A DNA stretch of 64,000 nucleotides. Origin: a phage. The position numbers and the translations under genes were made by a program. Below, piece after piece: positions 4,756 through 46,391 of this stretch (the first letter of the stretch is position 1; each line of letters begins with the position of its first letter). Location of the stretch: sequence record PZ452584.1; one strand, given 5' to 3'. The notes beneath the pieces are model-generated. The model saw only the letters and a list, made by a program, of their open reading frames with translations. It made no database searches and was not told the origin of the DNA.

Positions 4756-5442
4756 TTAAAAATCGTGGGTAGAATCAGCTTCAAGAGCTACTACATAATT
4801 CGCATGTTCACCTTCAAATTTAGCAGCACCTTGTTTACCTTTTGCCCAGAGCAGAAGTTTATAATTTCCTGGTTGCATTTTCATATTTGCCATATTGATA
4901 ATGAAATTAAATGTATTTTCACCATCATAATCACCAAGAGTCAAAGAATATTTAACACGGGTCAGAGCAGAATCTTCTACTTTATTAAAACCGTTAATTA
5001 CGATTTTACCTTCTTTTACTGTGATAGCAATTGTATCAATTTGCAGACCACGAGATACACGCAACAGTTGTTGAAGGTCTTCAGCTTTAATTTCAGTAAC
5101 AACAGATGCTACCGGGAATGGAATTGGTTTATTAGGAGCAACTACTGTACTCGGATCGGCTGCTGGCCAAAAAATTGTTGAGCGGGCATCAGCAATTTTA
5201 ATATTTCCATCTTCTGACTGGGAAATTTCTGCATCATCATTAACTAGAGACAGAATACCGAGAAAACCGTTCAAATCGTAAATTGCTACATCAAAATCAA
5301 TAACGTCAGAAATATTCGCTTCCGCATAAGTTGTACCATTAACTGCGCGAGTCATAATAAATTGACCGGATTTAAGCATAATACCAGAGTTAATAGTAGC
5401 GAAATTTTTCAGCAGAGCAGTAGTATCTTTAGACAGTTTCAT
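4756..5442 (-). CDS. 45: sliding clamp gp45
   Basis: 228-aa ORF, T4 gp45 size and position; ATG 5440-5442. Confidence 0.92.
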   Translation of the reverse strand: MKLSKDTTALLKNFATINSGIMLKSGQFIMTRAVNGTTYAEANISDVIDFDVAIYDLNGFLGILSLVNDDAEISQSEDGNIKIADARSTIFWPAADPSTVVAPNKPIPFPVASVVTEIKAEDLQQLLRVSRGLQIDTIAITVKEGKIVINGFNKVEDSALTRVKYSLTLGDYDGENTFNFIINMANMKMQPGNYKLLLWAKGKQGAAKFEGEHANYVVALEADSTHDF

Positions 5443-5471
5443 GTAATTTCCTTCAATTCAAATGAGATTTA

Positions 5472-5497
5472 ATTTTATAACTAATTTAATAAAGCAA
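5472..5497 (-). promoter_or_regulatory. MotA-dependent middle promoter upstream of gene 45
   Basis: Minus-sense TTGCTTTA (MotA box) about 12 nt upstream of TAAAAT/TATAAA -10, 30-50 nt upstream of gene 45 ATG. Confidence 0.45.
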
Positions 5498-5887
5498 TTA
5501 ACGATTAAAATCAGCCGCAATTGTTTCCGCAACAATTTGAGCAGCAACAATTAGACGTTCATCTGCATTACCGCAATAATCATCTTCAAGGCGTTCACCA
5601 CATGAAGTCATAATAAATTTAGCACCAGCATTTAAAGATTCTGTCGTATGTTTGCGCATTAGTTCAATCCATTTATCACTCACTTCGCGATCGATAGCTT
5701 CATAATACGCATGACGAGCAGGTGCAGATTTAATTTTGTTCTGAATAACTTCCATTGCGTTATCAGAAAGAGACAAAACCCATGCTCGACGAATTTTATT
5801 TTGGTTTTGTGGATTTGATTCAGAACGCACGTGTTTTGGCTGAATATCTTTTACATCAACAGTATAATTCACAGTAATTTTAGTCAT
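5498..5887 (-). CDS. rpbA: RNA polymerase-binding protein RpbA
   Basis: 129-aa ORF at T4 rpbA position and length. Confidence 0.8.
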
Positions 5888-6140: not shown

Positions 6141-7823
6141 TTAAACCATTACAGTAAATCGACCAACTTTCTTCATTTGAAGATGCTGACCATATTCTTG
6201 CGGGTCATGGTCTTTATGCGAAATTATAAAAACATTAGTGTTTTTCATTGAATTTATAATATTAGCTACACCTTTAATACCTTCGGCATCAAATGACCCG
6301 TCAAACACTTCATCAAGAATTAATGTACTAATACTAACACCAGATACGATAGAAGCAATATCACGCCAAGTAAATAAAAGAGCAATATCAATTCGTGCCT
6401 TTTCACCTTCACTAAATGAAGCATAACTAAAATCTTCACGACCACGGGATTTAATTGTCTCATTAAATTCTTCATCTAATGTAAACACATAATCCGCTTC
6501 CATTATTTTAAGATAATGGTTAATCTGCTTATTAAATAATGGAATGTACTTTTTAATAATAGCACCTTTAATACCAGAATCTTTGAGCATATCAGTCAAA
6601 ATTCCTCGGTGGTATTTTTCCATTACTAAATTAGTTTTTGTCTTAACAATTTTATCAAGTTCTTCTTGAAGCAGTGCTATTTCATCAGCATGGTCAATAA
6701 ACTCAGAAGATGCTTTTTCTATAGCTGCTTTAACTTTTTTAGCTTTATCTACCGTCGTGATTAGAGATTGCTTTTTATTGCGAATATCATTTGCCAACGA
6801 CTGCTGGGTTTTAATATTATCTCGGTATTCATCAACAAGAACTTTTAAATTATCACGATGTGTTGAAAGCTGTTCAAACGAATGCGTACATTCAGAAACT
6901 TTATCTTTAATTTTAGAAACAACTTTATCACCGGAACTTAATTGTGACAGACAGGTTGGACATAATCCGCCTTCGTGATACATATTAATGACTTTATTAT
7001 ACGAGTCAATTTTTGATTTAATTAAAACTGCTTCTTGACCGATTTTATTAAATGCATCAGTCGGGTCTTCATCCAAAACAATATTAACTAATCTTTCATT
7101 AGCTTCTTCTATTTCCGATTTTAGCGTTCTAGCTTCTTTTGCCAAATCATCATACATATTTTGCAGACGAGTAAGATTGTCACCCGTTAATTTTTTCTGG
7201 CGTTCAACGTTATCATTATATATTTTAATTTGTTGGATAATACTATCTTTTTTAACATCAAGCACTTGGTTTTGTGAATTTAATTCACGTATTAGTGCTT
7301 TATTAAGCTTATCCATTTCAGCTAATGTTCCTACCTCAAGCAGGTCTTCCACAAGCTTTCTTCGTGCAGGGGTCGACAAACCCATGAAAGGGGTATACCC
7401 TGCTGTACCAAGGACAACAATCTGCTTGAAACTGGCATATGACATTCCGATAAGCTGTTCAAATTCTGCTTGGAAATCTTTACTGCTGGCAGATTCATTA
7501 AGACGTGTACCGTTAACGGTGATTTCGAAAACGTTTGGTTTTTGTCCTCTTTTGATATAGTACTTTTTCTCATCATATTCCATCCACAGTTCAACTAAAA
7601 GTTCTTTCTTATTTGTGCTGTTTATTAATTGACCTTTCTTTACATCACGAAATGGCTTGCCAAAAAGCCCAAATGTGATGGCTTCTAACATAGTAGACTT
7701 ACCACCGCCATTTCGTCCAGTAATAAGAGTTTTTTGAACCTTATCTAATTGAATGTCAACTCCATTTTGACCAACTGACATTATATTTTTATATTTTACT
7801 CTATTAAGTTTAAATGATTTCAT
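6141..7823 (-). CDS. 46: recombination endonuclease subunit gp46 (Rad50/SbcC-like ATPase)
   Basis: 560 aa; Walker A GRNGGGKST near N-terminus, coiled-coil middle, CPTC zinc hook, C-terminal ABC signature/Walker B region (LILDEVFDGSFD). Confidence 0.92.
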   Translation of the reverse strand: MKSFKLNRVKYKNIMSVGQNGVDIQLDKVQKTLITGRNGGGKSTMLEAITFGLFGKPFRDVKKGQLINSTNKKELLVELWMEYDEKKYYIKRGQKPNVFEITVNGTRLNESASSKDFQAEFEQLIGMSYASFKQIVVLGTAGYTPFMGLSTPARRKLVEDLLEVGTLAEMDKLNKALIRELNSQNQVLDVKKDSIIQQIKIYNDNVERQKKLTGDNLTRLQNMYDDLAKEARTLKSEIEEANERLVNIVLDEDPTDAFNKIGQEAVLIKSKIDSYNKVINMYHEGGLCPTCLSQLSSGDKVVSKIKDKVSECTHSFEQLSTHRDNLKVLVDEYRDNIKTQQSLANDIRNKKQSLITTVDKAKKVKAAIEKASSEFIDHADEIALLQEELDKIVKTKTNLVMEKYHRGILTDMLKDSGIKGAIIKKYIPLFNKQINHYLKIMEADYVFTLDEEFNETIKSRGREDFSYASFSEGEKARIDIALLFTWRDIASIVSGVSISTLILDEVFDGSFDAEGIKGVANIINSMKNTNVFIISHKDHDPQEYGQHLQMKKVGRFTVMV

Positions 7824-7838
7824 TTTGTATCCAATTGT

Positions 7839-8693
7839 TCACAATGAAGAAAATTCTTTAACTAAAGCCTGTAATGAAGCCTCTATTGGATATCCATTCT
7901 TAACTAACATTTTCCTAAACATCACATGTTTAGGACGATTATATGATATCCACAATTCATACAATTTATCTTTATTATCCCAATGATAGCCTTTTCGTCG
8001 AGATGCTATATGAGCTTTTCTAATCTCCGGATTTTTCCAACTAGCAGCTACTGAATTTGATATAGCTATTTTATATTCAGGTTTTGATAAAGCAGCACGA
8101 ACAGCCTTTTGGTGTTTAATTTTATTTTCTTCGTTATTAAACCATTCCCTTGAAGCCATTGAAATTTTTTGTTTTGTTTTAAAATTATTTAATCTTTCTT
8201 TGTTATCTTTCCTATTTTTTGCTACTGAAAAATATTTTAATGCCCTTTCTCTAGCAGCATTTCTATTTTGCGGATTTGAATAATATTGTTGAAGCCTTTT
8301 TGATATTGTGTCACTTACATCTTGTTTTATAAAACTATATTCAGCAGCTATTAAATCAACTTCGGCTAAAGATAAATTTTTATATGTTTTTCCTGACATC
8401 ATTCTATTTAAAGCATTTAGCATTTTTCCATTTTTACCTTTTGCTAATAAGAAATGTGCTTTAAAATGATTAAAATGACTTAAATTAACTAAATTCCATG
8501 TAGATTTTAAATATTCAGGAAATATTGATTTAGGAAGCACGTGATGTGCTTCCGTTTTACCTGGAGTTTTAACAGTTGAATTCATAGAAATAAAATTAAT
8601 GTAAGACTTGGCGTCTTCTTCACTCAACGCTAATTTTTCAACTAATTCCTTTATTAAAAATTCATCATTAATGTCAAGTTTAAAATTCTTCAC
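7839..8693 (-). mobile_element. free-standing HNH homing endonuclease gene (Mob-like), GTG start
   Basis: 284-aa ORF with HNH core KTEAHHVLPKSIFPEY...NLVNLSHFNHFKAH; about 47 bp near-identical DNA to the mobC-like gene (8511-8557 vs 17030-17077); inserted between 46 and the 46.1-like ORF. Confidence 0.75.
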
Positions 8694-8905
8694 AAAAGAT
8701 TCCTTTTAATGTATCTTTTAGACCATTCTATCATATCATCATAATCTAAAAAGTATTCATCAAATTCAGCCATGCAAACAACGCCTTGTGCTGCTTTTGA
8801 TGTGATATAAATTATTCCAACATATCTAGAATCTTCTTCGGTATAATCAATGTTTGCTATGAATTCATCATTGATGTCAAATGTCGAAAACTTCACAGTA
8901 TGCAT
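8690..8905 (-). CDS. hypothetical protein (46.1-like position)
   Basis: ATG 8903-8905; N-terminus MHTVKFSTFDINDEF resembles N-terminus of adjacent HNH ORF; stop overlaps HNH GTG start (GTGA). Confidence 0.45.
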   Translation of the reverse strand: MHTVKFSTFDINDEFIANIDYTEEDSRYVGIIYITSKAAQGVVCMAEFDEYFLDYDDMIEWSKRYIKRNLL

Positions 8906-9140
8906 CCTTAATACAAGATACAGCCATATCTCGTAATGATTTAGGTGTGTCATTATCTAAAATGTTGAAGTTAAAAGATACAGCCCAGTCAGTGCAGACC
9001 GTAACCTTTTTAATACAATTATCTTCAACCTCTAGCGGTTCAAACCAATATTCAATAATTTCTTTATGCCCAATATCATCTTTTACTTCGCATTCAAAAT
9101 GCTGACTCATCATAACATTTTTAAATTCATCAAAAGTCAT
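8877..9140 (-). CDS. hypothetical protein (46.2-like position)
   Basis: 87-aa ORF; ATG 9138-9140 overlaps gp47 stop (ATGA). Confidence 0.45.
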   Translation of the reverse strand: MTFDEFKNVMMSQHFECEVKDDIGHKEIIEYWFEPLEVEDNCIKKVTVCTDWAVSFNFNILDNDTPKSLRDMAVSCIKDAYCEVFDI

Positions 9141-10156
9141 TGTGTTGCCTCTACATATAACTGATTTGCATATTGAATAAGTGCTTCACGGTCAGAATCA
9201 GTGATGTCTGGAATTGCATTAATGTATTCTTCCATCAACGTCTGAAGAGATTGAACTTCAACTTCTTCACTGTCATCTGACTCGACAGAGTTATCAATCT
9301 TTGACACAACTCGTAATGAATGCACAACTTTTTCTAGTTCAGATTCGAACTTCGTCAGATTTTTGTCTACTTCAGTTACTATAACACGTACTGATAGATT
9401 TGTAAAATCTTTATAGTCAATTTTTCCTTTAAATGGATAATGAATTCTACGATGCCAGGTAGTATTGTTTGGAATAAATTCCATTCGTTCTGTTTCTGTA
9501 TCAAACATCCAGAACCCGCGAGGGTCATTCTCGTCACCTGCAGTTAGTGTCCATGGTGTCCCAATATATCTGACGTTAGCAGCCTCAGAGATAGTATGGA
9601 AGTGACCAGACCACACCTCTTTATAAGTCTTAAGGAAATCAGGTTCAAGACCATGAGATTTCATTCCTTTATAAAAATAAAATCCATTCAGTTCCCAGTG
9701 ACCAACACAAAAAGAAGCAGAAGAAGTTTTTATGTGCTCGAGAATTTCACCAGTATTTTCTTCACACATCCAAGGAATTAAATCAATTAAACATCCGTCA
9801 AAATCTACTGTAGTAGGCTTATCATATACTTTAACATTAGGATATTTAGCCAAAAGCTCAGTAGAGGCATTTGGATGCATTACATTTTTGTAGTGGAGAT
9901 CGTGATTTCCTACAATAGTATGTAATGTGATTCCAGCGTCATCAAGCATTTGAACTATTTCACGGGCAAACTCCATAGTTTTATGTGTGATTGCTTTTCG
10001 CACATCAAAAATATCACCATATTGAATCCATACAGTAATTCCATTTTTCTTAGAATATTCTATCGCTTGCTTAATTCCATCAATTTGAATACCGCGAATC
10101 CACTCATCATCAGCTTTAACGCCTAAATGCCAATCACCCGAGTTTAGTATTTTCAT
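9137..10156 (-). CDS. 47: recombination endonuclease subunit gp47 (Mre11/SbcD-like phosphoesterase)
   Basis: 339 aa, starts MKILNSGDWHLG, metallophosphatase motifs (GDIFD, GNHD). Confidence 0.92.
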   Translation of the reverse strand: MKILNSGDWHLGVKADDEWIRGIQIDGIKQAIEYSKKNGITVWIQYGDIFDVRKAITHKTMEFAREIVQMLDDAGITLHTIVGNHDLHYKNVMHPNASTELLAKYPNVKVYDKPTTVDFDGCLIDLIPWMCEENTGEILEHIKTSSASFCVGHWELNGFYFYKGMKSHGLEPDFLKTYKEVWSGHFHTISEAANVRYIGTPWTLTAGDENDPRGFWMFDTETERMEFIPNNTTWHRRIHYPFKGKIDYKDFTNLSVRVIVTEVDKNLTKFESELEKVVHSLRVVSKIDNSVESDDSEEVEVQSLQTLMEEYINAIPDITDSDREALIQYANQLYVEATQ

Positions 10157-26755: not shown

Positions 26756-27724
26756 TTATTTCAGAAGAGTAACCTCAGCGATTTCTTCCCAGCCGTTTTT
26801 GTCGGTCATAATAAAGTCAGCAAGATAAAGAGCAGTACGCAGTGAAACATTGCGTAAACGATTAACATTGACTTTCATCCATGATAATGCTTTATAAGTT
26901 TCTTCATCAGAAAGACCACGCTTTTGCATCATGTCGGTTGAAAGAATAACATCTTCAACCCTGACCATAATTTCTTCATTAGTGTGAACACCCAAATCCA
27001 AATAAACTGAGCGGGACACTAATGCTTGTAAATGTGGAGCAAGTTTAGTACCACGGTCTAATTCGCGGTCAATGTCAACGTTTGTGATAAAAACAATCGT
27101 TCCTTTAAATTCAAACTCACGCTCAATGCCTTTTTCTTCTAAGTAAGAAGATGCAGTGCTCCAGCAGACTTTACGGGTCTCTCCAGTGTCCAGAGCGGCT
27201 TTTAGAAGATTAAGAATATCCATATCAGAGAAAACATCCACATCATCAATCAAAAGGACAGAATTCTCTTCACGATTATTCCAAAGCTGCTCATAAAGAC
27301 CGATACCGGAGATTTTACCGTTAATGCTTTTATATTCAATGTATCCATTATCATTTGCTTTATTTAAAGCTTTATCTAAAGAATACGTTTTACCAATACC
27401 CGCCGCACCAGAGATAATTAATGAACGAATGTTTCCGTTAATAATACCATTCGTCATCATTCCCATAACATTAAATCTTTTATTAATGCGGGTTTTCATA
27501 TCTTCATATGATTCTTTAACTTCTTCAACTTTTACACCATCATATGAAATGTCTGATTTGTAAACCCAAACACCGCGACGTTTACCGTCAATTTCAACAA
27601 AAACTTTACCATCTCCTTGTGCATCTACCGGAGCATTATCTGGGAACCATTCACCTAAGAGCTCAAAAGTTCCAGAGATTTCTTTACCAAAGTAGATACC
27701 CTTATTGATAGTTACAGTTTTCAT
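26756..27724 (-). CDS. AAA+/P-loop ATPase of unknown function
   Basis: Walker A GAAGIGKT, Walker B LLIDDVD, sensor-like LRNVSLRTALYLAD; start at ATG 27722-27724 (SD GGAG). Confidence 0.55.
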   Translation of the reverse strand: MKTVTINKGIYFGKEISGTFELLGEWFPDNAPVDAQGDGKVFVEIDGKRRGVWVYKSDISYDGVKVEEVKESYEDMKTRINKRFNVMGMMTNGIINGNIRSLIISGAAGIGKTYSLDKALNKANDNGYIEYKSINGKISGIGLYEQLWNNREENSVLLIDDVDVFSDMDILNLLKAALDTGETRKVCWSTASSYLEEKGIEREFEFKGTIVFITNVDIDRELDRGTKLAPHLQALVSRSVYLDLGVHTNEEIMVRVEDVILSTDMMQKRGLSDEETYKALSWMKVNVNRLRNVSLRTALYLADFIMTDKNGWEEIAEVTLLK

Positions 27725-27758
27725 TTTATTCTCCAAATCCGTATCAGTTGATAGTTGT

Positions 27759-27847: not shown

Positions 27848-28333
27848 TTATTCCATTTCTATTATATGCATGTTCTTTTTGCTATCAAAATATATGTTTT
27901 TAACTGTTAACTCCGAATTAATTGGCAATAAAAACTCTCTTTCATAATCTACCATACAAAGGTTATCATAAAGCTTGTTAAGCTTATCATCGTCAGTTTG
28001 GCCAGATTCTTCAATTGCGATTAAATTTTCTAAAATGTCAATCATAGCAGTCGAATAGTCAAAAACGTTTGCATTTTTTAACACTACTAAAACATTAGTC
28101 ATATAGCGTTCTGCAGCAAACGTTTCAGCTATATGAGACTCACTGCTAAAGGAAGTTATTCTTTTAAATTTGATTCTCCTATTAACTTCAAACTTATAAG
28201 ATAGTACTTCCTCTATTGTAAGTCCTCTAAAAAGCACGTCTTTAATCTCAAGTTTGTCTTTAATGTAATCATTAACACGCTTATGATTAAAATCATTAAT
28301 TTTGTTGCCAAGGCATTTCATTAAAATATGCAT
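27848..28333 (-). CDS. hypothetical protein
   Basis: ORF; start taken at ATG 28331-28333. Confidence 0.4.
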   Translation of the reverse strand: MHILMKCLGNKINDFNHKRVNDYIKDKLEIKDVLFRGLTIEEVLSYKFEVNRRIKFKRITSFSSESHIAETFAAERYMTNVLVVLKNANVFDYSTAMIDILENLIAIEESGQTDDDKLNKLYDNLCMVDYEREFLLPINSELTVKNIYFDSKKNMHIIEME

Positions 28334-28381
28334 TGTGTTTCTCTTCAATTTTTTAAAGAACAATTAATTAACTACAAATAT

Positions 28382-28411
28382 ATTATAATATGCTTTATGA
28401 TAGAAGTAAAC
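28382..28411 (-). promoter_or_regulatory. sigma70-type early promoter
   Basis: GTTTAC-N18-TATAAT. Confidence 0.5.
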
Positions 28412-28440
28412 AACTTTGTGAAAAATTTTTGAAATAAAAA

Positions 28441-28458
28441 GGGAGCCCGAAGGCTCCC
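28441..28458 (-). terminator. C(UUCG)G tetraloop hairpin after nucleotidyltransferase gene
   Basis: GGGAGCC-UUCG-GGCUCCC. Confidence 0.5.
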
Positions 28459-28460
28459 TA

Positions 28461-29474
28461 TCATTTATAATAACTTCGGTGGTTTTCAAGATACACCTTC
28501 TCAAGGAAGTCATCCCAGAAACCCATGTCTACTTTTTGCTGCATACCGTTCTTAGAAGCTTCAGTAGATGCTGCTTCTACTTGATCGACCACATCTTCCA
28601 AAAACTCTTGAACTGTTTTAAATGGATGCTTACCCAACTTCACGTCGAGAATAAATGGAGCATCTTGGAGTGGATAAACCAAGTCACCAGTTTTGTAAAT
28701 TTCCAATAGTTGGAGTCCACCACGACAAGCATGACTCAGAGCTTTCCAGTCAATACCTTCATTGGCTTCGGCCTTACGAGCACGTTCACCGTATTCAGCA
28801 TCAAGTTTATTCAAAGACTGCTTAAGCTCAATAAGAGAAAGCGTTGTCTGATATTTACGACCCAACACAGTGTAGAACGTTTGTGGGCCTGTTTTCTCAT
28901 GATTATGGAACACCCATTCACAGAATTCGTTTTCTGGAAGACGATGCTTAATATCTTCAACTTTAGTACGACGCTGCTTAATGGAACCGTCTTCTTGGTA
29001 ATCAACCCATTGCTCAGGGATTTGATTAACTACTTTCAATACATCGCGTAATGCAGCCAAACGAGAACCCTTGACACCGTATTTAGAAGCTTGCTTGCGA
29101 ACATATCCTAAATAAGATTTCATGTTAGTCGTATAAAAACGAGAACGGTTGTCTTGAATAAACTTCCACACATCAGGCAAATCAGATTTAACCACTAATT
29201 CAGGTGGAGTGTGAAGCATATCCAATGCTACAGTTTCACCATCTGCTGCTAATTTAAAGAAATACTTAAGACTATACAATTCGTGGTCAATATCATCTTT
29301 AGTGTTTTTAGATGATGTGTTGTTGGTGTTTTTACTCATGTGCTCTTTGACATTTCCGATAAGAATATCGCGAGCAGGAGGAACAAAAATTTCTTTAAAA
29401 TCTACATCAGATTCTGGGGTAGAAGTTCCATAAAGATGACTACCAAAATAGCTTTTCATTACTGTTTTCATCAT
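28461..29474 (-). CDS. Pol-beta-fold nucleotidyltransferase-domain protein
   Basis: N-terminal motif YFGSHLYGTSTPESDVDFKEIFVPP (hG[GS]...SDxD) typical of NTP_transf_2-type nucleotidyltransferases; 337 aa with about 250-aa C-terminal extension. Confidence 0.6.
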   Translation of the reverse strand: MMKTVMKSYFGSHLYGTSTPESDVDFKEIFVPPARDILIGNVKEHMSKNTNNTSSKNTKDDIDHELYSLKYFFKLAADGETVALDMLHTPPELVVKSDLPDVWKFIQDNRSRFYTTNMKSYLGYVRKQASKYGVKGSRLAALRDVLKVVNQIPEQWVDYQEDGSIKQRRTKVEDIKHRLPENEFCEWVFHNHEKTGPQTFYTVLGRKYQTTLSLIELKQSLNKLDAEYGERARKAEANEGIDWKALSHACRGGLQLLEIYKTGDLVYPLQDAPFILDVKLGKHPFKTVQEFLEDVVDQVEAASTEASKNGMQQKVDMGFWDDFLEKVYLENHRSYYK

Positions 29475-29620
29475 TCAGCCTTATATTCAATAACAGGACA
29501 TACTTTAGCTTTACGGGCTTTTAAAAATTCGACGATAATAGATTTCTTGGGTTGAATAGGAGGTAAACCTTTATACGCCCTATCAATATTTTCTACATGT
29601 AAAGCATAATCCTTTTCCAT
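29471..29620 (-). CDS. small protein (49 aa) translationally coupled to nucleotidyltransferase
   Basis: ATG 29618-29620; stop TGA overlaps NTase ATG (GAATGATG); not in ORF track (<60 aa). Confidence 0.35.
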   Translation of the reverse strand: MEKDYALHVENIDRAYKGLPPIQPKKSIIVEFLKARKAKVCPVIEYKAE

Positions 29621-29931
29621 TTATAATCTTTATATTTTTCATGCAGTTGTGCAGGAATAACAAATGAACCGATAATAAGTAAAACAAGCAAAATGGCAAG
29701 TATAAATGCTGATGGAATAAGAGTCCATAAACTACCAAAAATAAGCCATTTCTGTATGATTTCTGCACAGATGATAGTTAGCCCTACGAGTATAGCACAT
29801 CCGAAAAAAGAAACGAAAAATGTAGGAATAACAATAGACCAAAAATATGCACATAGTGTCTTAGGTCGTTGCCATTCATCGTTAAACAATTTGAATAATT
29901 TATAGTGCCAAGAGTTTTCATTAATAATCAT
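29593..29931 (-). CDS. membrane protein (multi-TM)
   Basis: 112 aa with 3 hydrophobic helices. Confidence 0.45.
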   Translation of the reverse strand: MIINENSWHYKLFKLFNDEWQRPKTLCAYFWSIVIPTFFVSFFGCAILVGLTIICAEIIQKWLIFGSLWTLIPSAFILAILLVLLIIGSFVIPAQLHEKYKDYKWKRIMLYM

Positions 29932-29933
29932 AA

Positions 29934-30455
29934 TTATCCTTTCATTGAAGGCGTAACGGTTGTTAAATATTTAATCATAGCTTCAGCTTCTGATTTTGAT
30001 AATGAAATTTCTCCATTGTTTTGACGAATAGAAATAAAATCCGGATGACGGTCACCACCAGCTTTTAAAACACACATATAAGTATCAACTTCGCCTTCAA
30101 TATTTGAAATGATTGAAGCAGTTCCACATGAATGCGGTTTTTGATAAATCAACACAGCTTTTCTTCCGCCATTTGACTGCTCATAGGCTTTTAATACATC
30201 AAGCAAATCAGTTCTTTTATCAATAGCTAAAATGTTATTTTCATCTTCAATGTTAAATCCTTCGGATACTTCATAAAGCGTTACCCATAAATCACCAATG
30301 TCAATAACAGCATTTACTTTTCCACGGCTTTCAAGAGTATGACAAATTTTCTTGATTTCGTCATAACTCATTTTAATAATATCATCTCCTTGACTAAGAA
30401 AGATGTCATTTTTAAATTCAACACGAATTAAACCGCTTCCACTTGAAATAAACAT
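29934..30455 (-). CDS. hypothetical protein, tandem paralog 1
   Basis: 173 aa; C-terminus SKSEAEAMIKYLTTVTPSM and internal GFNIEDEN resemble downstream-adjacent ORF. Confidence 0.45.
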   Translation of the reverse strand: MFISSGSGLIRVEFKNDIFLSQGDDIIKMSYDEIKKICHTLESRGKVNAVIDIGDLWVTLYEVSEGFNIEDENNILAIDKRTDLLDVLKAYEQSNGGRKAVLIYQKPHSCGTASIISNIEGEVDTYMCVLKAGGDRHPDFISIRQNNGEISLSKSEAEAMIKYLTTVTPSMKG

Positions 30456-30461
30456 ATTTCC

Positions 30462-31016
30462 TCACTTTGAAATCATAGTTGGAATAACAGAATCAAGATA
30501 AGTCTTTAGTGCAATAGCTTCGTCTTTGGTAAATGTGACAATATGTGCTCGAAAATCATCAATTTGACGAATAGTTAAGACATCTCCATCTTCATAACAT
30601 TTTGATACGTTTAAAACAGTTTCATCATTCTGATTGCAAGCGTTAGTAATAATAGCATTGCAATTTTTAAACCATTTTAAACTATGTTTTCTTTCATTAG
30701 AATAATAAAAATATTTAATCTTATCTATAAAACTGTCCCAATGGATAACTGATAAGCATATTGACTCGCTTTCAATATTAAATCCTGGGCATGAAGAATA
30801 AAAATGAATTTTATGCTCATCATTAATGCTTACAATTTTATCAGTATAAGGATATTCAATTTGGGTTAAATGAATAATTTCACTAGGTGTAAAATACAGC
30901 ATATCGTCTTCTTGCGTCAAACGATACATATTATTTACTTTTTCTATAGCCAATTCGCCAAAAAGCGGACTAACTTCTAATACTAATCGTTTCATATTAA
31001 TCCTTTTTAATGGCAT
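30462..31016 (-). CDS. hypothetical protein, tandem paralog 2
   Basis: 184 aa; C-terminus TKDEAIALKTYLDSVIPTM and GFNIESES match paralog 1. Confidence 0.45.
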   Translation of the reverse strand: MPLKRINMKRLVLEVSPLFGELAIEKVNNMYRLTQEDDMLYFTPSEIIHLTQIEYPYTDKIVSINDEHKIHFYSSCPGFNIESESICLSVIHWDSFIDKIKYFYYSNERKHSLKWFKNCNAIITNACNQNDETVLNVSKCYEDGDVLTIRQIDDFRAHIVTFTKDEAIALKTYLDSVIPTMISK

Positions 31017-45032: not shown

Positions 45033-45109
<77 letters not shown>

Positions 45110-45112
45110 TAA

Positions 45113-45778
45113 TTAAAATTTCATTTTTCGACCTTTAAACCATCCTTCTGGAATTGGGTCAGTTTTCTTAATACGTTTAGAAACTTTTTCATCTAATGAA
45201 TGAATCCACATCATACCAAATTGGGAATTCTTTTCACCTTGTTGGTGTTTATTTCTGGCGTGAGATTCTTTCATTTTATTAATAGTTTCAGGAGTATGGG
45301 TCTTACCCAAGAAAGATTTAGTATTTAAAAATTTCTCTCTATACTTAGGATTATCCCAAAGCTGTTTAAACCTTTCTGAACCCATTTTACGATATTTTTC
45401 TTTAAGGTCTAGGTCGTTCTCAAATCTGGTTTTAAAAGCAGCAGCCCCTTTTAAGGAAGCTTCTTTCTTTTTATCCAAATATTCTTTAGTGTTTAAATGG
45501 TCCCAACCACCTTCACCACCTAATTTCAAATTATAAACATCAGGGCGCTTTAAAAACTCTTCAGTCACAATATTCTTTTCTGACTCAAACATAGAGGTTT
45601 TATCGTCAAAGAACTCTAATATTTCTTTAGAGAAATTTTCTATACCATACTTGTCTTGGGCTCTTTTTAATAATTTACCAGAACCCATATATCCATCATC
45701 TAAATTTTCGGTAGAATGAGCGCCTATATAGATTTTATTATTAATTTTATTTGTTATTTTATAAGTGTAATGGAACAT
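45113..45778 (-). mobile_element. segB: GIY-YIG homing endonuclease SegB
   Basis: 221 aa, N-terminal YTYKITNKINNKIYIGAHS GIY-YIG motif; embedded in tRNA cluster as in T4. Confidence 0.85.
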
Positions 45779-45819
45779 AAATATCTCCTATTTCTAAGAG
45801 TATTTATGTTCCCAAAATA

Positions 45820-45891
45820 TGGCCCTGGGTGGAATTGAACCACCATCTGGCGATTATGAGTCGCTTGCTTGAACCTTCCAGCTACAGGGCC
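45820..45891 (-). tRNA. tRNA-Ile (anticodon CAU; Met by anticodon alone)
   Basis: manual fold: acceptor GGCCCUG/CAGGGCC, anticodon loop CUCAUAA, T arm GGUGG-UUCAAUU-CCACC. Confidence 0.75.
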
Positions 45892-45897
45892 TTGATA

Positions 45898-45970
45898 TGC
45901 TGATTGACGGAATCGAACCGCCGACATCCTCATTACAAGTGAGGTGCTCTACCTACTGAGCTAAATCAGC
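45898..45970 (-). tRNA. tRNA-Thr (anticodon UGU)
   Basis: acceptor GCUGAUU/AAUCAGC, anticodon loop CUUGUAA, T loop GGUUCGAUUCC. Confidence 0.8.
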
Positions 45971-45977
45971 GAAATTA

Positions 45978-46064
45978 CGGAGGCGATAGGATTTGAACCT
46001 ATGAGTCGCCGGAGCGACTGCCGGTTTTCAAGACCGGTGCATTAAACCACTCTGCCACGCCTCC
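45978..46064 (-). tRNA. tRNA-Ser (anticodon UGA), long variable arm
   Basis: acceptor GGAGGCG/CGCCUCC, anticodon loop CUUGAAA, T loop GGUUCAAAUCC. Confidence 0.8.
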
Positions 46065-46066
46065 AG

Positions 46067-46140
46067 TCTCCGCGGCAGGATTTGAACCTGCGACATTCTG
46101 CTCCCAAAGCAGACGCTCTACCAAACTGAGCTACACGGAG
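46067..46140 (-). tRNA. tRNA-Pro (anticodon UGG)
   Basis: acceptor CUCCGUG/CGCGGAG, anticodon loop UUUGGGA, T arm GCAGG-UUCAAAU-CCUGC. Confidence 0.8.
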
Positions 46141-46152
46141 TAAATTAAATTT

Positions 46153-46224
<72 letters not shown>

Positions 46225-46230
46225 AAACTT

Positions 46231-46317
46231 TGGTACGAGAAGTGGGACTCGAACCCACAAGGAAATCATTCCGCAGCATTTTAAGTGCTGTGCCTTTACC
46301 AATTTGACCATTCTCGC
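46231..46317 (-). tRNA. tRNA-Leu (anticodon UAA), CCA encoded
   Basis: acceptor GCGAGAA/UUCUCGU, anticodon loop CUUAAAA, long variable arm, T loop GGGUUCGAGUCCC, 3' ACCA. Confidence 0.8.
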
Positions 46318-46318
46318 G

Positions 46319-46391
46319 CTGGGAATAAAGGACTCGAACCTTTGCATCTAGCAGTCAAAGTGCTATGCCTTACCAACTTGGCTAATTCCCA
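46319..46391 (-). tRNA. tRNA-Gln (anticodon UUG)
   Basis: acceptor UGGGAAU/AUUCCCA, anticodon loop CUUUGAC, T loop GGUUCGAGUCC; abuts tRNA-Leu. Confidence 0.8.

What the first reader, a model, noticed from the sequence alone, without database searches (positions are those of the whole stretch)
28461..29931. Stand-alone nucleotidyltransferase cassette with coupled small ORF and membrane protein
ORF 28461-29474 begins with YFGSHLYGTSTPESDVDFKEIFVPP, the hG[GS]...SDxD signature of Pol-beta-fold nucleotidyltransferases (minimal NTase, AbiEii-like and CD-NTase relatives share this fold), followed by a ~250-aa extension of unknown function. Its ATG overlaps the stop of a 49-aa ORF (29471-29620), and a 3-TM membrane protein (29593-29931) lies just upstream. 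A UUCG hairpin (28441-28458) closes the unit. Nucleotidyltransferases in phage accessory regions can modify nucleic acids or nucleotide second messengers, or act as toxin-like modules.
Basis: partly seen in the sequence, partly recalled or inferred. Interest (0 to 1): 0.55.

Follow-up and report, generated by a model that had tools for sequence, protein, structure and literature searches.

The report
T-even phage NrdC.11 RNA nucleotidyltransferase
This is the well-conserved T4-type phage gene nrdC.11, a member of the RlaP family of enzymes that add one or two nucleotides to broken RNA ends. The "small coupled ORF" and "membrane protein" next to it are two halves of one neighbouring gene split by a single-base deletion, so the finding is real but ordinary.

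Summary
The 337-aa ORF (28461-29474, minus strand) is real. It is the T-even phage gene nrdC.11, 98% identical to T4 NrdC.11. It passes the Pfam PF10127 (RlaP) threshold. A high-confidence AlphaFold model (pLDDT 93.9) has a Pol-beta nucleotidyltransferase core followed by helical domains. Homologues occur in 1518 phage records. A 2025 preprint places T4 NrdC.11 in RlaP and shows that bacterial RlaPs add 1-2 NMPs to RNA 3'-OH ends, preferring broken tRNA. I found relatives 33-47% identical next to RNA-repair genes: Rnl1-type ligase plus an HD/kinase protein in phages, and Pnkp/Hen1 or RtcB/Ro60 in bacteria. The most likely role is RNA (tRNA) end repair, working with the phage's kinase and ligases.

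The "cassette" reading fails. The 49-aa ORF and the 112-aa membrane ORF are one conserved 153-aa membrane-protein gene, broken here by a 1-nt deletion in an A5 run. It is intact in 862 of 864 phage records. T4 has the mobD endonuclease gene in its place, and other genera have it separated from nrdC.11. The UUCG hairpin is a genuine intrinsic terminator that ends a multi-gene early unit.

Verdict: already known, low interest. The in vivo role of NrdC.11 remains untested.

The parts
28461..29474 (-). nrdC.11 coding sequence. It is 337 aa from the first ATG. The start annotated in T2, T4 and ACG-C40 is the second ATG at 29471, giving 336 aa. It encodes an RlaP-family (PF10127) Pol-beta-fold nucleotidyltransferase.
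   Evidence: ORF list and sequence. 98% identical to T4 NrdC.11. Pfam RlaP E = 2.5e-11. phrog_388 E = 8e-137. 1518 phage records carry a homologue.
29136..29474 (-). N-terminal NTase catalytic core, residues 1-113. G11-S12 lie at 29444-29439, D23 and D25 at 29408-29400, and D61/D63 at 29294-29286. D85 is nearly invariant.
   Evidence: Invariant columns in a 61-sequence alignment at 34-55% identity and in an alignment with RNA-ligase-linked relatives. The AF2 secondary structure reads strand, helix starting at GS, strand starting at DxD, then strand 62-68. Which Asp is the third metal ligand was not measured on the model.
29022..29120 (-). Two long helices, residues 119-151. They carry the invariant K131 and Y132 and the motif KYG.KGSR.
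   Evidence: AF2 model. Conservation.
28848..29012 (-). Small beta-rich subdomain, residues 155-209. It is the most variable segment. The T-even proteins carry an extra ~14 residues here (QWVDYQEDGSIKQR) relative to other clade members.
   Evidence: AF2 strands 155-159, 165-169, 185-192, 196-203 and 206-209, with pLDDT 95-98. Alignment gaps.
28467..28835 (-). C-terminal helical bundle, residues 214-336. It carries the invariant DWKA.SHA.R motif (W243, K244, H248, R251) and K279. The fold is HEPN-like or KNTase-C-like.
28431..28459 (-). Intrinsic terminator: an 8-bp GC-rich stem with a UUCG loop (28459-28440), then a U-tract. It ends the transcription unit 1 nt after the nrdC.11 stop codon.
   Evidence: Terminator scan. 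Fold dG -18.4 kcal/mol, z -4.15.
29479..29482 (-). AAGG Shine-Dalgarno-like element. It lies 7 nt before the annotated ATG (29471) and 4 nt before the first ATG (29474).
   Evidence: Read directly from the sequence. Its function is inferred.
29471..29931 (-). Neighbouring gene, not part of the enzyme: a conserved 153-aa membrane protein (phrog_944). Here it is split into a 112-aa ORF (29593-29931) and a 49-aa ORF (29471-29620).
   Evidence: Window versus T2 alignment. The reconstructed protein is intact in 862 of 864 phage records. ACG-C40 gp178 is 153 aa. phrog_944 E = 1.7e-50. Cross-genus alignment.
29613..29616 (-). Site of the frameshift: a run of 4 A where relatives have 5 A.
   Evidence: Run lengths are window 4, and L007, L035, T2 and ACG-C40 5. 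The exact A4 context occurs 0 times in IMG/VR and the A5 context in 3 contigs.

Best explanation
The ORF is nrdC.11 of a T2/ACG-C40-like Tequatrovirus. Its product is an RlaP-family (PF10127) Pol-beta-fold nucleotidyltransferase.

Shown here: family membership, the intact GS / DxD / D catalytic signature, a confident NTase-plus-helical-domain fold, and the fact that close full-length relatives sit inside RNA-repair gene clusters.

Taken from the literature: bacterial RlaPs use Mn2+ and any NTP to add one or two NMPs, without a template, to the 3'-OH of RNA. They do not act on DNA or protein, and they prefer the 5' half of an anticodon-loop-cleaved tRNA.

Inferred:
- NrdC.11 is made early in infection as the last gene of a multi-gene early transcript that stops at the UUCG terminator.
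- It acts on RNA 3'-OH ends produced after the phage Pnk removes the 2',3'-cyclic phosphate.
- It refills nucleotides that host anticodon nucleases of the RloC type trim away, so that the phage's 5'-phosphate-dependent ligases (Rnl1, Rnl2) can reseal a full-length anticodon loop.
- It is an accessory counter-defence enzyme and is not essential in laboratory hosts.

The adjacent membrane-protein gene, broken here by a frameshift, is a syntenic neighbour and not a partner.
For: Identity:
- 98% identical to T4 NrdC.11.
- Pfam RlaP at 44.2 bits against a cutoff of 23. All 61 diverse relatives tested hit RlaP.
- G11, S12, D23, D25 and D63 are invariant.

Fold:
- pLDDT 93.9.
- The best PDB matches are NTases. 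BFVD matches are all phage nucleotidyltransferases.

Family biochemistry and explicit placement of T4 NrdC.11 in RlaP SSN cluster 5: PMC12776372.

Context of relatives, tested here:
- Of 48 IMG/VR loci at 55% identity or less, 8 have an Rnl1-type RNA ligase (PF09511). In 6 of these the ligase lies 15-492 nt upstream on the same strand, preceded by an HD + P-loop-kinase protein.
- 2 further loci have RtcB, and 5 have an HD-domain gene overlapping or abutting the 3' end of the NTase gene.
- Of 71 bacterial or archaeal loci, 6 have Pnkp (4 abutting, 4 with Hen1 also present), 5 have RtcB and 4 have Ro60.
- These ligase-linked proteins share 49 invariant positions with the window protein over its full length.

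Phage repertoire:
- T4 Pnk homologues occur in essentially the same number of records per host genus as NrdC.11: Klebsiella 286/286, Shigella 83/83, Enterobacter 56/56, Acinetobacter 70/69, Aeromonas 77/75.
- The preprint notes that RlaP's 3'-OH products suit 5'-P ligases of the T4 type.

The same repair role was predicted for phage RlaPs in PMC7824862. RloC's nucleotide excision was proposed to defeat T4 repair in PMC2610378.

Dispensability: a nrdC.11-mobD.3 deletion is viable in T4 (PMC9825161).
Against: - No experiment has been done on NrdC.11 itself. The preprint calls it 'RlaP of unknown function'.
- It sits in a different sequence cluster from the assayed Pseudomonas enzymes. The Pfam match covers only residues 7-135.
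- The clade has a beta subdomain that the preprint does not describe for PfRlaP.
- In T-even genomes nrdC.11 is not next to pnk or the ligase genes. None lies within this 64-kb window.
- The RNA-repair neighbourhoods cover only about 20% of the relatives examined. Several of the phage loci are near-duplicates, amounting to roughly 2-3 independent lineages.
- Co-occurrence with Pnk could simply reflect shared descent within Straboviridae.
- Untemplated addition restores the correct nucleotide only some of the time. In vitro, RlaP also labels intact tRNA and rRNA.
Confidence: 0.55

Rival explanations
1. NrdC.11 is an RNA 3'-end nucleotidyltransferase, but its role is not anticodon-loop repair. 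Candidate roles are repairing or extending tRNA 3'-CCA ends, tailing host or phage RNAs to change their stability, or blocking host tRNAs as part of host shut-off in the manner of MenT.
For: Bacterial RlaPs label full-length tRNA and rRNA as well as fragments, and show little NTP specificity. A distant phage homologue lies two genes from a CCA-adding enzyme. HD-domain genes, which can be 3'-end-healing phosphoesterases, overlap the NTase gene in 5 phage loci. The phage carries its own tRNA cluster at 45033-46391.
Against: The recurrent neighbours are ligases and end-healing enzymes, not decay factors. Addition stops after 1-2 nt, and broken tRNA is preferred over the acceptor end in the annealed mimic. 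From memory and not tested here: T4 suppressor tRNAs depend on the host CCA enzyme, which argues against a phage CCA activity.
Confidence: 0.2
2. NrdC.11 nucleotidylylates a small molecule or a protein, as aminoglycoside or lincosamide NTases and the AMPylators GlnE and DrrA do, rather than RNA.
Against: These matches reflect the shared NTase-plus-helical-domain fold at 8-13% identity. The family-level profile match is to RlaP. For RlaP, protein and DNA were tested and excluded as substrates. The genomic context of relatives is RNA repair.
Confidence: 0.07
3. NrdC.11 synthesises a free oligonucleotide or nucleotide signal, or mimics one (HalB-like oligo-dA or a CD-NTase-like product), in order to manipulate a host immune pathway.
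Against: There is no sequence-family match to CD-NTase or HalB-type models. RlaP products are RNA extended by 1-2 nt, not free oligomers. The neighbours of relatives are repair enzymes, not effectors or sensors.
Confidence: 0.05
4. This is the first reader's cassette idea: the NTase, the 49-aa ORF and the membrane protein form a toxin-like or three-part functional module.
For: The stop and start codons overlap (ATGA) between the upstream reading frame and nrdC.11. The membrane gene lies immediately upstream of nrdC.11 in many Tequatrovirus and Mosigvirus records.
Against: The 49-aa ORF is the C-terminal tail of the membrane protein, separated by a 1-nt deletion unique to this window. T4 has mobD instead of the membrane gene. 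T2 has it disrupted by a different 2-bp deletion. Klebsiella phage Mineola has three ORFs between the two genes. Aeromonas phage AS-yj has no nrdC.11 annotated within 2.5 kb of it. There are no AbiEii or antitoxin hits.
Confidence: 0.03

Closest known systems
Bacteriophage T4 NrdC.11 (NP_049709, 'nucleotidyltransferase')
   Same: It is the orthologue: 98% identical over the full length. It sits in the same position, upstream of nrdC.10 in the nrdC-mobD early region.
   Different: In T4 the upstream neighbour is the mobD homing endonuclease, where this phage has the 153-aa membrane-protein gene plus a second y05I-like gene. T4 also lacks the 171-aa ART-like ORF that lies between nrdC.11 and nrdC.10 here.
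RlaP (PF10127) enzymes PfRlaP and PaRlaP of Pseudomonas (PMC12776372)
   Same: Same Pfam family. Same GS/DxD/D catalytic signature. Same overall plan of an N-terminal NTase domain plus a C-terminal helical domain ending in a long helix. Relatives of the window protein are linked to RtcB, Pnkp and Rnl1 just as RlaP is.
   Different: It belongs to a different SSN cluster (5 versus 1a). The Pfam alignment covers only the N-terminal 135 residues. The NrdC.11 clade has a beta subdomain at residues 155-209 that the preprint does not mention. It is not in an rtcBA operon. Its activity has not been assayed.
Kanamycin nucleotidyltransferase ANT(4') and other two-domain NTases (3c18, LinB, AadA)
   Same: A Pol-beta NTase domain followed by a helical (HEPN-like) domain. 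These are the best Foldseek hits.
   Different: Only 7-10% identity, TM about 0.3 and large rmsd. Their substrates are antibiotics. There is no family-level sequence match.
Hailong HalB oligodeoxyadenylate synthase
   Different: 16% identity. HalB is 217 aa and lacks the beta subdomain and the extended helical bundle. It is a host defence component that makes free oligo-dA, not an RNA end-modifying enzyme.
   Same: They share the Pol-beta fold and the hG[GS]...[DE]x[DE] motif.
   Different: AbiEii and CD-NTase models give no hit. PF01909 is below threshold (E = 0.091 at 13.6 bits against a cutoff of 21). There is no cognate antitoxin or effector gene. The presumed small partner ORF is a gene fragment.

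Membership tests
RlaP / PF10127 nucleotidyltransferases | Sequence match to the family profile above the curated threshold | tested here: met
   PF10127 E = 2.5e-11, 44.2 bits against a cutoff of 23, covering residues 7-135. All 61 aligned relatives match PF10127. The precomputed Pfam label is PF10127 on all 120 close homologues.
RlaP / PF10127 nucleotidyltransferases | Pol-beta catalytic signature: G-S plus three acidic residues | tested here: met
   G11, S12, D23, D25 and D63 are invariant. D61 and D85 are invariant or nearly so. Which Asp is the third metal ligand was not measured on the model.
RlaP / PF10127 nucleotidyltransferases | N-terminal NTase domain plus C-terminal helical domain, with the last helix packing back on the NTase domain (PfRlaP crystal structure) | tested here: inconclusive
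   The AF2 model (pLDDT 93.9) has an NTase core, a helical bundle and a long terminal helix at 317-336. The PfRlaP coordinates and sequence are not in the PDB copy, so no direct superposition was possible. An extra beta subdomain is present.
RlaP / PF10127 nucleotidyltransferases | Gene neighbourhood with RNA ligase or RNA-repair genes | tested here: not met
   Not met in this window: there is no ligase or Pnk within 64 kb, and the neighbours are unrelated. It is met for a minority of 33-47%-identical relatives, with Rnl1, RtcB, Pnkp/Hen1 or Ro60 nearby. By established knowledge, T-even phages encode Pnk, Rnl1 and Rnl2 elsewhere. Pnk was confirmed in the same phage groups.
RlaP / PF10127 nucleotidyltransferases | Mn2+-dependent addition of 1-2 NMP to RNA 3'-OH | not testable with these tools
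   Shown only for PfRlaP and PaRlaP (PMC12776372).
AbiEii / MenT toxin NTases (type IV/VII TA) | Family profile match and an adjacent cognate antitoxin gene | tested here: not met
   No AbiEii/MenT-type hit at E <= 0.1. The candidate partner ORF is a frameshift fragment of a membrane-protein gene.
CD-NTase / cGAS-like signalling enzymes | Family profile or structural match, and a linked effector gene | tested here: not met
Intrinsic (Rho-independent) terminator | GC-rich stem-loop followed immediately by a U-tract, downstream of a stop codon | tested here: met
   An 8-bp stem with 6 GC pairs, a UUCG loop and a UUUUUAUUU tail, starting 1 nt after the stop codon. z = -4.15.

The most novel reading that the evidence does not exclude
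NrdC.11 could be the missing third enzyme of the T-even tRNA repair pathway (Pnk, then NrdC.11, then Rnl1 or Rnl2). That would let these phages undo nucleotide-excising anticodon nucleases such as RloC, a lesion proposed in 2008 to 'defy' phage repair.

A more exotic possibility is a HalB-like oligonucleotide synthase that feeds a decoy signal to a host defence system.

The clade-specific beta subdomain (residues 155-209) would then be the element that reads the broken tRNA, or holds the product. Neither possibility is excluded by the evidence. The first has already been proposed in print for the family. The second is purely structural speculation.
Probability: 0.3. Interest if true: 0.5.

Novelty: already known. 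Interest (0 to 1): 0.2.

Why it matters
NrdC.11 is one of the most widely conserved accessory genes of T4-like phages whose role in infection is still untested, with homologues in about 1500 sequenced genomes. If it refills nucleotides removed by RloC-type anticodon nucleases, it would complete the classic T4 Pnk/Rnl1 tRNA-repair story. It would also answer an open question from 2008: whether nucleotide-excising nucleases really escape phage repair. That hypothesis is already published for the RlaP family, and the bacterial enzymes have been characterised. This window therefore adds no new kind of element. Its practical value is a corrected annotation: there is no small coupled ORF, only a frameshifted membrane-protein gene. 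The many database records that name NrdC.11 'thioredoxin' are also mislabelled.

Tried and rejected
- Sequence search of the 337-aa protein, and of a 61-sequence profile, against PDB chains found no meaningful hit. The only match was a spurious E = 0.083. The PfRlaP crystal structure could therefore not be compared directly.
- The afdb50 fold library was unavailable.
- NCBIfam gave nothing for NrdC.11.
- I considered programmed recoding at the A-run. I rejected it because the run is only 4 A, the A5 in-frame version is the norm in 862 of 864 records, and other records show independent indels in the same gene: T2's 2-bp deletion, and two-piece matches in UFV-AREG1 and AV114.
- I considered the membrane protein as a conserved partner of NrdC.11. 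I rejected it because T4, Mineola and AS-yj break the adjacency.
- I looked for Pnk, Rnl1, RtcB or Pnkp in the window and found none. The best hit was Pnk-like at E = 0.008, at 62.5-63.0 kb, probably an unrelated P-loop kinase.
- Plus-strand ORFs antisense to nrdC.11 (up to 113 aa) were disregarded, because the minus-strand protein is conserved across families.
- No phage record is identical to this window at the locus. The best is 97.4%. I could therefore not decide whether the frameshift is a true mutation or a sequencing error.
Full report
**What is in the sequence.** The minus strand of 28461-29474 carries a 337-aa ORF containing YFGSHLYGTSTPESDVDFKEIFVPP at residues 9-33. Megablast of 28300-30100 finds 673 phage records, almost all Tequatrovirus. 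The best are ACG-C40 at 97.4% and T2 at 95.8%, and in both the gene is annotated nrdC.11 / nucleotidyltransferase. The protein is 98% identical to T4 NrdC.11. tblastn finds homologues in 1518 phage records across Straboviridae and beyond, 1444 of them near full length. An exhaustive HMMER scan finds 3424 50%-identity cluster representatives, 829 at E <= 1e-30, and nearly all of the 150 listed cover most of the protein's length. RefSeq records start the gene at the second ATG (29471, 336 aa), 7 nt after an AAGG. The first ATG (29474) forms ATGA with the upstream stop codon.

**The hairpin.** AGGGAGCC-UUCG-GGCUCCCU at 28459-28440, followed by UUUUUAUUU, begins 1 nt after the stop codon. It folds at -18.4 kcal/mol, against -8.1 +/- 2.5 for shuffles, z -4.15. 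It is a standard intrinsic terminator. A good early-promoter-like site (TTTACT-17-TATAAT, 28410-28382) follows it and serves the next gene. Upstream, the genes are packed with gaps of a few nucleotides and no terminator. nrdC.11 is therefore the last gene of a longer early unit, not a stand-alone cassette.

**The '49-aa ORF' and the 'membrane protein' are one gene.** Aligning the window with T2 shows a single-base difference in an A-run: the window has TGGAAAAGG and T2 has TGGAAAAAGG.
- With five A's, the 112-aa frame runs straight into the 49-aa frame, giving a 153-aa protein.
- tblastn of that reconstructed protein finds it covered at 80% or more in 862 of 864 phage records, almost always as one piece.
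- ACG-C40 annotates it as a 153-aa CDS whose stop codon shares a base with the nrdC.11 start codon. It matches phrog_944 'membrane protein' at E = 1.7e-50.
- The run length is 4 only in the window. It is 5 in T2, ACG-C40 and two IMG/VR contigs, one of which encodes a 100%-identical NrdC.11. The exact A4 context occurs nowhere in IMG/VR, and the A5 context occurs in three contigs.

Whether the deletion is a real mutation or a homopolymer sequencing error cannot be decided here. The gene does appear expendable. T2 carries an independent 2-bp deletion in it. T4 has the mobD homing endonuclease in its place. Hydropathy shows two long hydrophobic stretches at roughly residues 27-56 and 62-95, fitting 2-3 TM helices.

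**The membrane gene is not a partner of the enzyme.** Adjacency holds in Tequatrovirus and Mosigvirus records. It breaks in three places: T4 has mobD there, Klebsiella phage Mineola has three ORFs between the two genes, and Aeromonas phage AS-yj has no nrdC.11 annotated within 2.5 kb of its copy. The pairing is therefore synteny by descent. The cassette or toxin-module reading is not supported.

**What the enzyme is.**
- Pfam gives RlaP (PF10127, 'RNA repair pathway DNA polymerase beta family') at E = 2.5e-11 and 44.2 bits against a cutoff of 23, over residues 7-135. The generic NTP_transf_2 model is sub-threshold, and no AbiEii or CD-NTase model matches.
- PHROG 388 (nucleotidyltransferase) matches the full length at E = 8e-137. 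All 61 diverse relatives tested (34-55% identity) hit RlaP.
- In that alignment G11, S12, G16, S22, D23, D25, N57, D63, Y132, K244, H248, R251, P268 and K279 are invariant.
- An AlphaFold2 model built on the alignment has mean pLDDT 93.9 and pTM 0.80. It shows an alpha/beta NTase core (about 1-113), two long helices (119-151), a small beta subdomain (155-209) and a helical bundle (214-336).
- Foldseek against the PDB returns only weak hits, with best E about 3e-3 and TM about 0.3. The highest-ranked are NTases at probability 0.98-1.0: kanamycin NTase, 3c18 and HalB.
- BFVD matches are phage nucleotidyltransferases.

**What is already known.**
- nrdC.11 orthologues were assigned to COG3541 nucleotidyltransferases in 2006 (PMC1524935).
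- According to later papers, Burroughs and Aravind named the PF10127 family RlaP because of its linkage to RNA ligases. They predicted that it restores nucleotides lost from cleaved RNA before ligation. I did not read the original paper.
- A December 2025 preprint (PMC12776372) shows that two Pseudomonas RlaPs add one or two NMPs to RNA 3'-OH ends. They do not act on DNA or protein, prefer Mn2+, accept any NTP and also dATP, and favour the 5' half of an anticodon-loop-cleaved tRNA mimic. They partly rescue aminoacylation of a tRNA missing one nucleotide.
- The preprint's crystal structure is an NTase domain plus a helical domain with a terminal helix packing back on the NTase domain.
- The preprint places T4 NrdC.11 in SSN cluster 5 and calls it an RlaP of unknown function.
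- A T4 deletion spanning nrdC.11-mobD.3 is viable (PMC9825161).

**Independent context test done here.** I collected loci encoding relatives of the window protein and clustered their neighbours.

Among 48 IMG/VR loci at 55% identity or less:
- 8 carry an Rnl1-type RNA ligase (PF09511).
- In 6 of these the ligase ends 15-492 nt upstream of the NTase on the same strand, preceded by an HD + P-loop-kinase (Pnk-like) gene.
- 2 carry RtcB.
- 5 have an HD-domain gene overlapping or abutting the 3' end of the NTase gene.
- Several of these loci are near-duplicates, so they represent about 2-3 independent lineages per pattern.

Among 71 bacterial or archaeal loci at 32-54% identity:
- 6 have Pnkp (PF16542). 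In 4 it abuts the NTase gene, and 4 also carry Hen1.
- 5 have RtcB and 4 have Ro60/TROVE.

The ligase-linked proteins align with the window protein over its whole length. They share 49 invariant positions, including the catalytic residues and the DWKA.SHA.R helix. The RNA-repair association therefore holds for the NrdC.11 clade itself, though only in about a fifth of loci.

In T-even genomes the gene is unlinked from repair genes, and none lies in this 64-kb window. Pnk homologues do occur in the same phage groups in almost identical numbers: Klebsiella 286/286, Shigella 83/83, Enterobacter 56/56, Acinetobacter 70/69. That is compatible with a shared pathway but equally with shared ancestry.

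**Most likely mechanism.**

Shown:
- It is an RlaP-family NTase with an intact active site and a confident fold.
- It is expressed from an early-region operon that ends at a strong terminator.

From the literature on relatives:
- It performs untemplated addition of 1-2 NMP to RNA 3'-OH.

Inferred:
- After a host anticodon nuclease cuts and trims a tRNA, as RloC does, Pnk heals the ends.
- NrdC.11 then refills the gap.
- Rnl1 or Rnl2, which need exactly the 3'-OH/5'-P ends this would produce, reseal the loop.

RloC's excision of the wobble nucleotide was proposed to defeat T4 repair (PMC2610378), and NrdC.11 would be the counter-move.

My confidence falls at each step. It is about 0.95 for family membership, about 0.65 for RNA 3'-end addition as the chemistry, and about 0.4 for this specific biological role. 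The rivals are other RNA-end functions, small-molecule or protein nucleotidylylation, signalling-oligonucleotide synthesis and a toxin cassette. They are listed separately with their evidence.

**Differences from the characterised RlaPs.**
- The Pfam match stops at residue 135.
- The clade has a beta subdomain at 155-209 that the preprint does not describe. In T-even phages this subdomain is about 14 residues longer.
- The PfRlaP coordinates are not in the PDB copy, so the architecture comparison rests on the preprint's description.

**Verdict.** The cassette with a coupled small ORF is an artefact of a frameshift in a neighbouring gene. The element is a known gene of a known and now biochemically characterised family. 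The only open question is its in vivo role, which is already hypothesised in print.

Noticed in passing
window 27848-28363 (-): A 171-aa ORF lies immediately downstream of the nrdC.11 terminator. It has its own early-promoter-like site (28410-28382) and terminator (27838-27820). It matches phrog_832 'RNA polymerase ADP-ribosylase' at E = 3e-24, but has no Pfam, NCBIfam or PDB hit. By eye it has R / S.S / E.E-like motifs (LFRG, TSFSS, YEREF). It is present in T2 and ACG-C40, where it is annotated ModB-like, and absent at this position in T4. It may be an extra Mod-type ADP-ribosyltransferase.
   Followed up: partly
window 29934-30455 and 30462-31016 (-): Two tandem paralogues of the T4 y05I/MobD.1 family (PF24449 + PF24448, phrog_1502) lie directly upstream of the membrane-protein gene. 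T4 keeps only one copy (mobD.1), next to mobD.
   Followed up: partly
L001 (T2, NC_054931) 5172-5631; L004 (T4) 8430-9209: The same membrane-protein gene is independently damaged in T2 by a 2-bp deletion, giving ORFs of 65 and 149 aa. In T4 it is replaced by the mobD HNH homing endonuclease. The gene is repeatedly lost or broken in laboratory T-even phages.
   Followed up: yes
database records for NrdC.11 homologues: Many GenBank and UniRef entries name this protein 'thioredoxin', apparently propagated from the gene name nrdC. One names it 'HNH homing endonuclease' and others 'DNA polymerase beta superfamily protein'. These are annotation errors or over-generalisations.
   Followed up: no
L003 (Rheinheimera phage Barba31A) 3250-5900: A 27-30%-identical RlaP homologue lies two genes downstream of a CCA-adding tRNA nucleotidyltransferase (PF01743). 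This is another RNA-end-repair-type neighbourhood, in a phage that is not T4-like.
   Followed up: no
L072-L076, L081 (IMG/VR contigs), about 3.9-8.0 kb of each locus: There is a compact putative phage RNA-repair cassette. In order it has an HD + P-loop kinase (Pnk-like, 377-406 aa), a 103-112-aa ORF, an Rnl1-type ligase (373-374 aa) and an NrdC.11-like NTase (309-310 aa). A conserved 337-338-aa ORF without a Pfam hit lies on the opposite strand just downstream.
   Followed up: partly
L004 (T4 NC_000866) within 7436-8446: The T4 RefSeq nrdC.11 translation contains an X near residue 103 (DLPDXWKF). This implies an ambiguous base in the reference sequence.
   Followed up: no
window 45033-46391 (-): This is the T-even tRNA gene cluster. 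It holds 8 tRNAs: Gln, Leu, Gly, Pro, Ser, Thr, a CAT-anticodon tRNA and Arg.
   Followed up: no
window 26756-27736 (-): nrdC.10 (326 aa) shows weak, sub-threshold matches to AAA/STAND NTPase models (nSTAND3, AAA_16, AAA_22) and matches phrog_1250 of unknown function. It is a conserved P-loop ATPase of unknown role, two genes downstream of nrdC.11.
   Followed up: no
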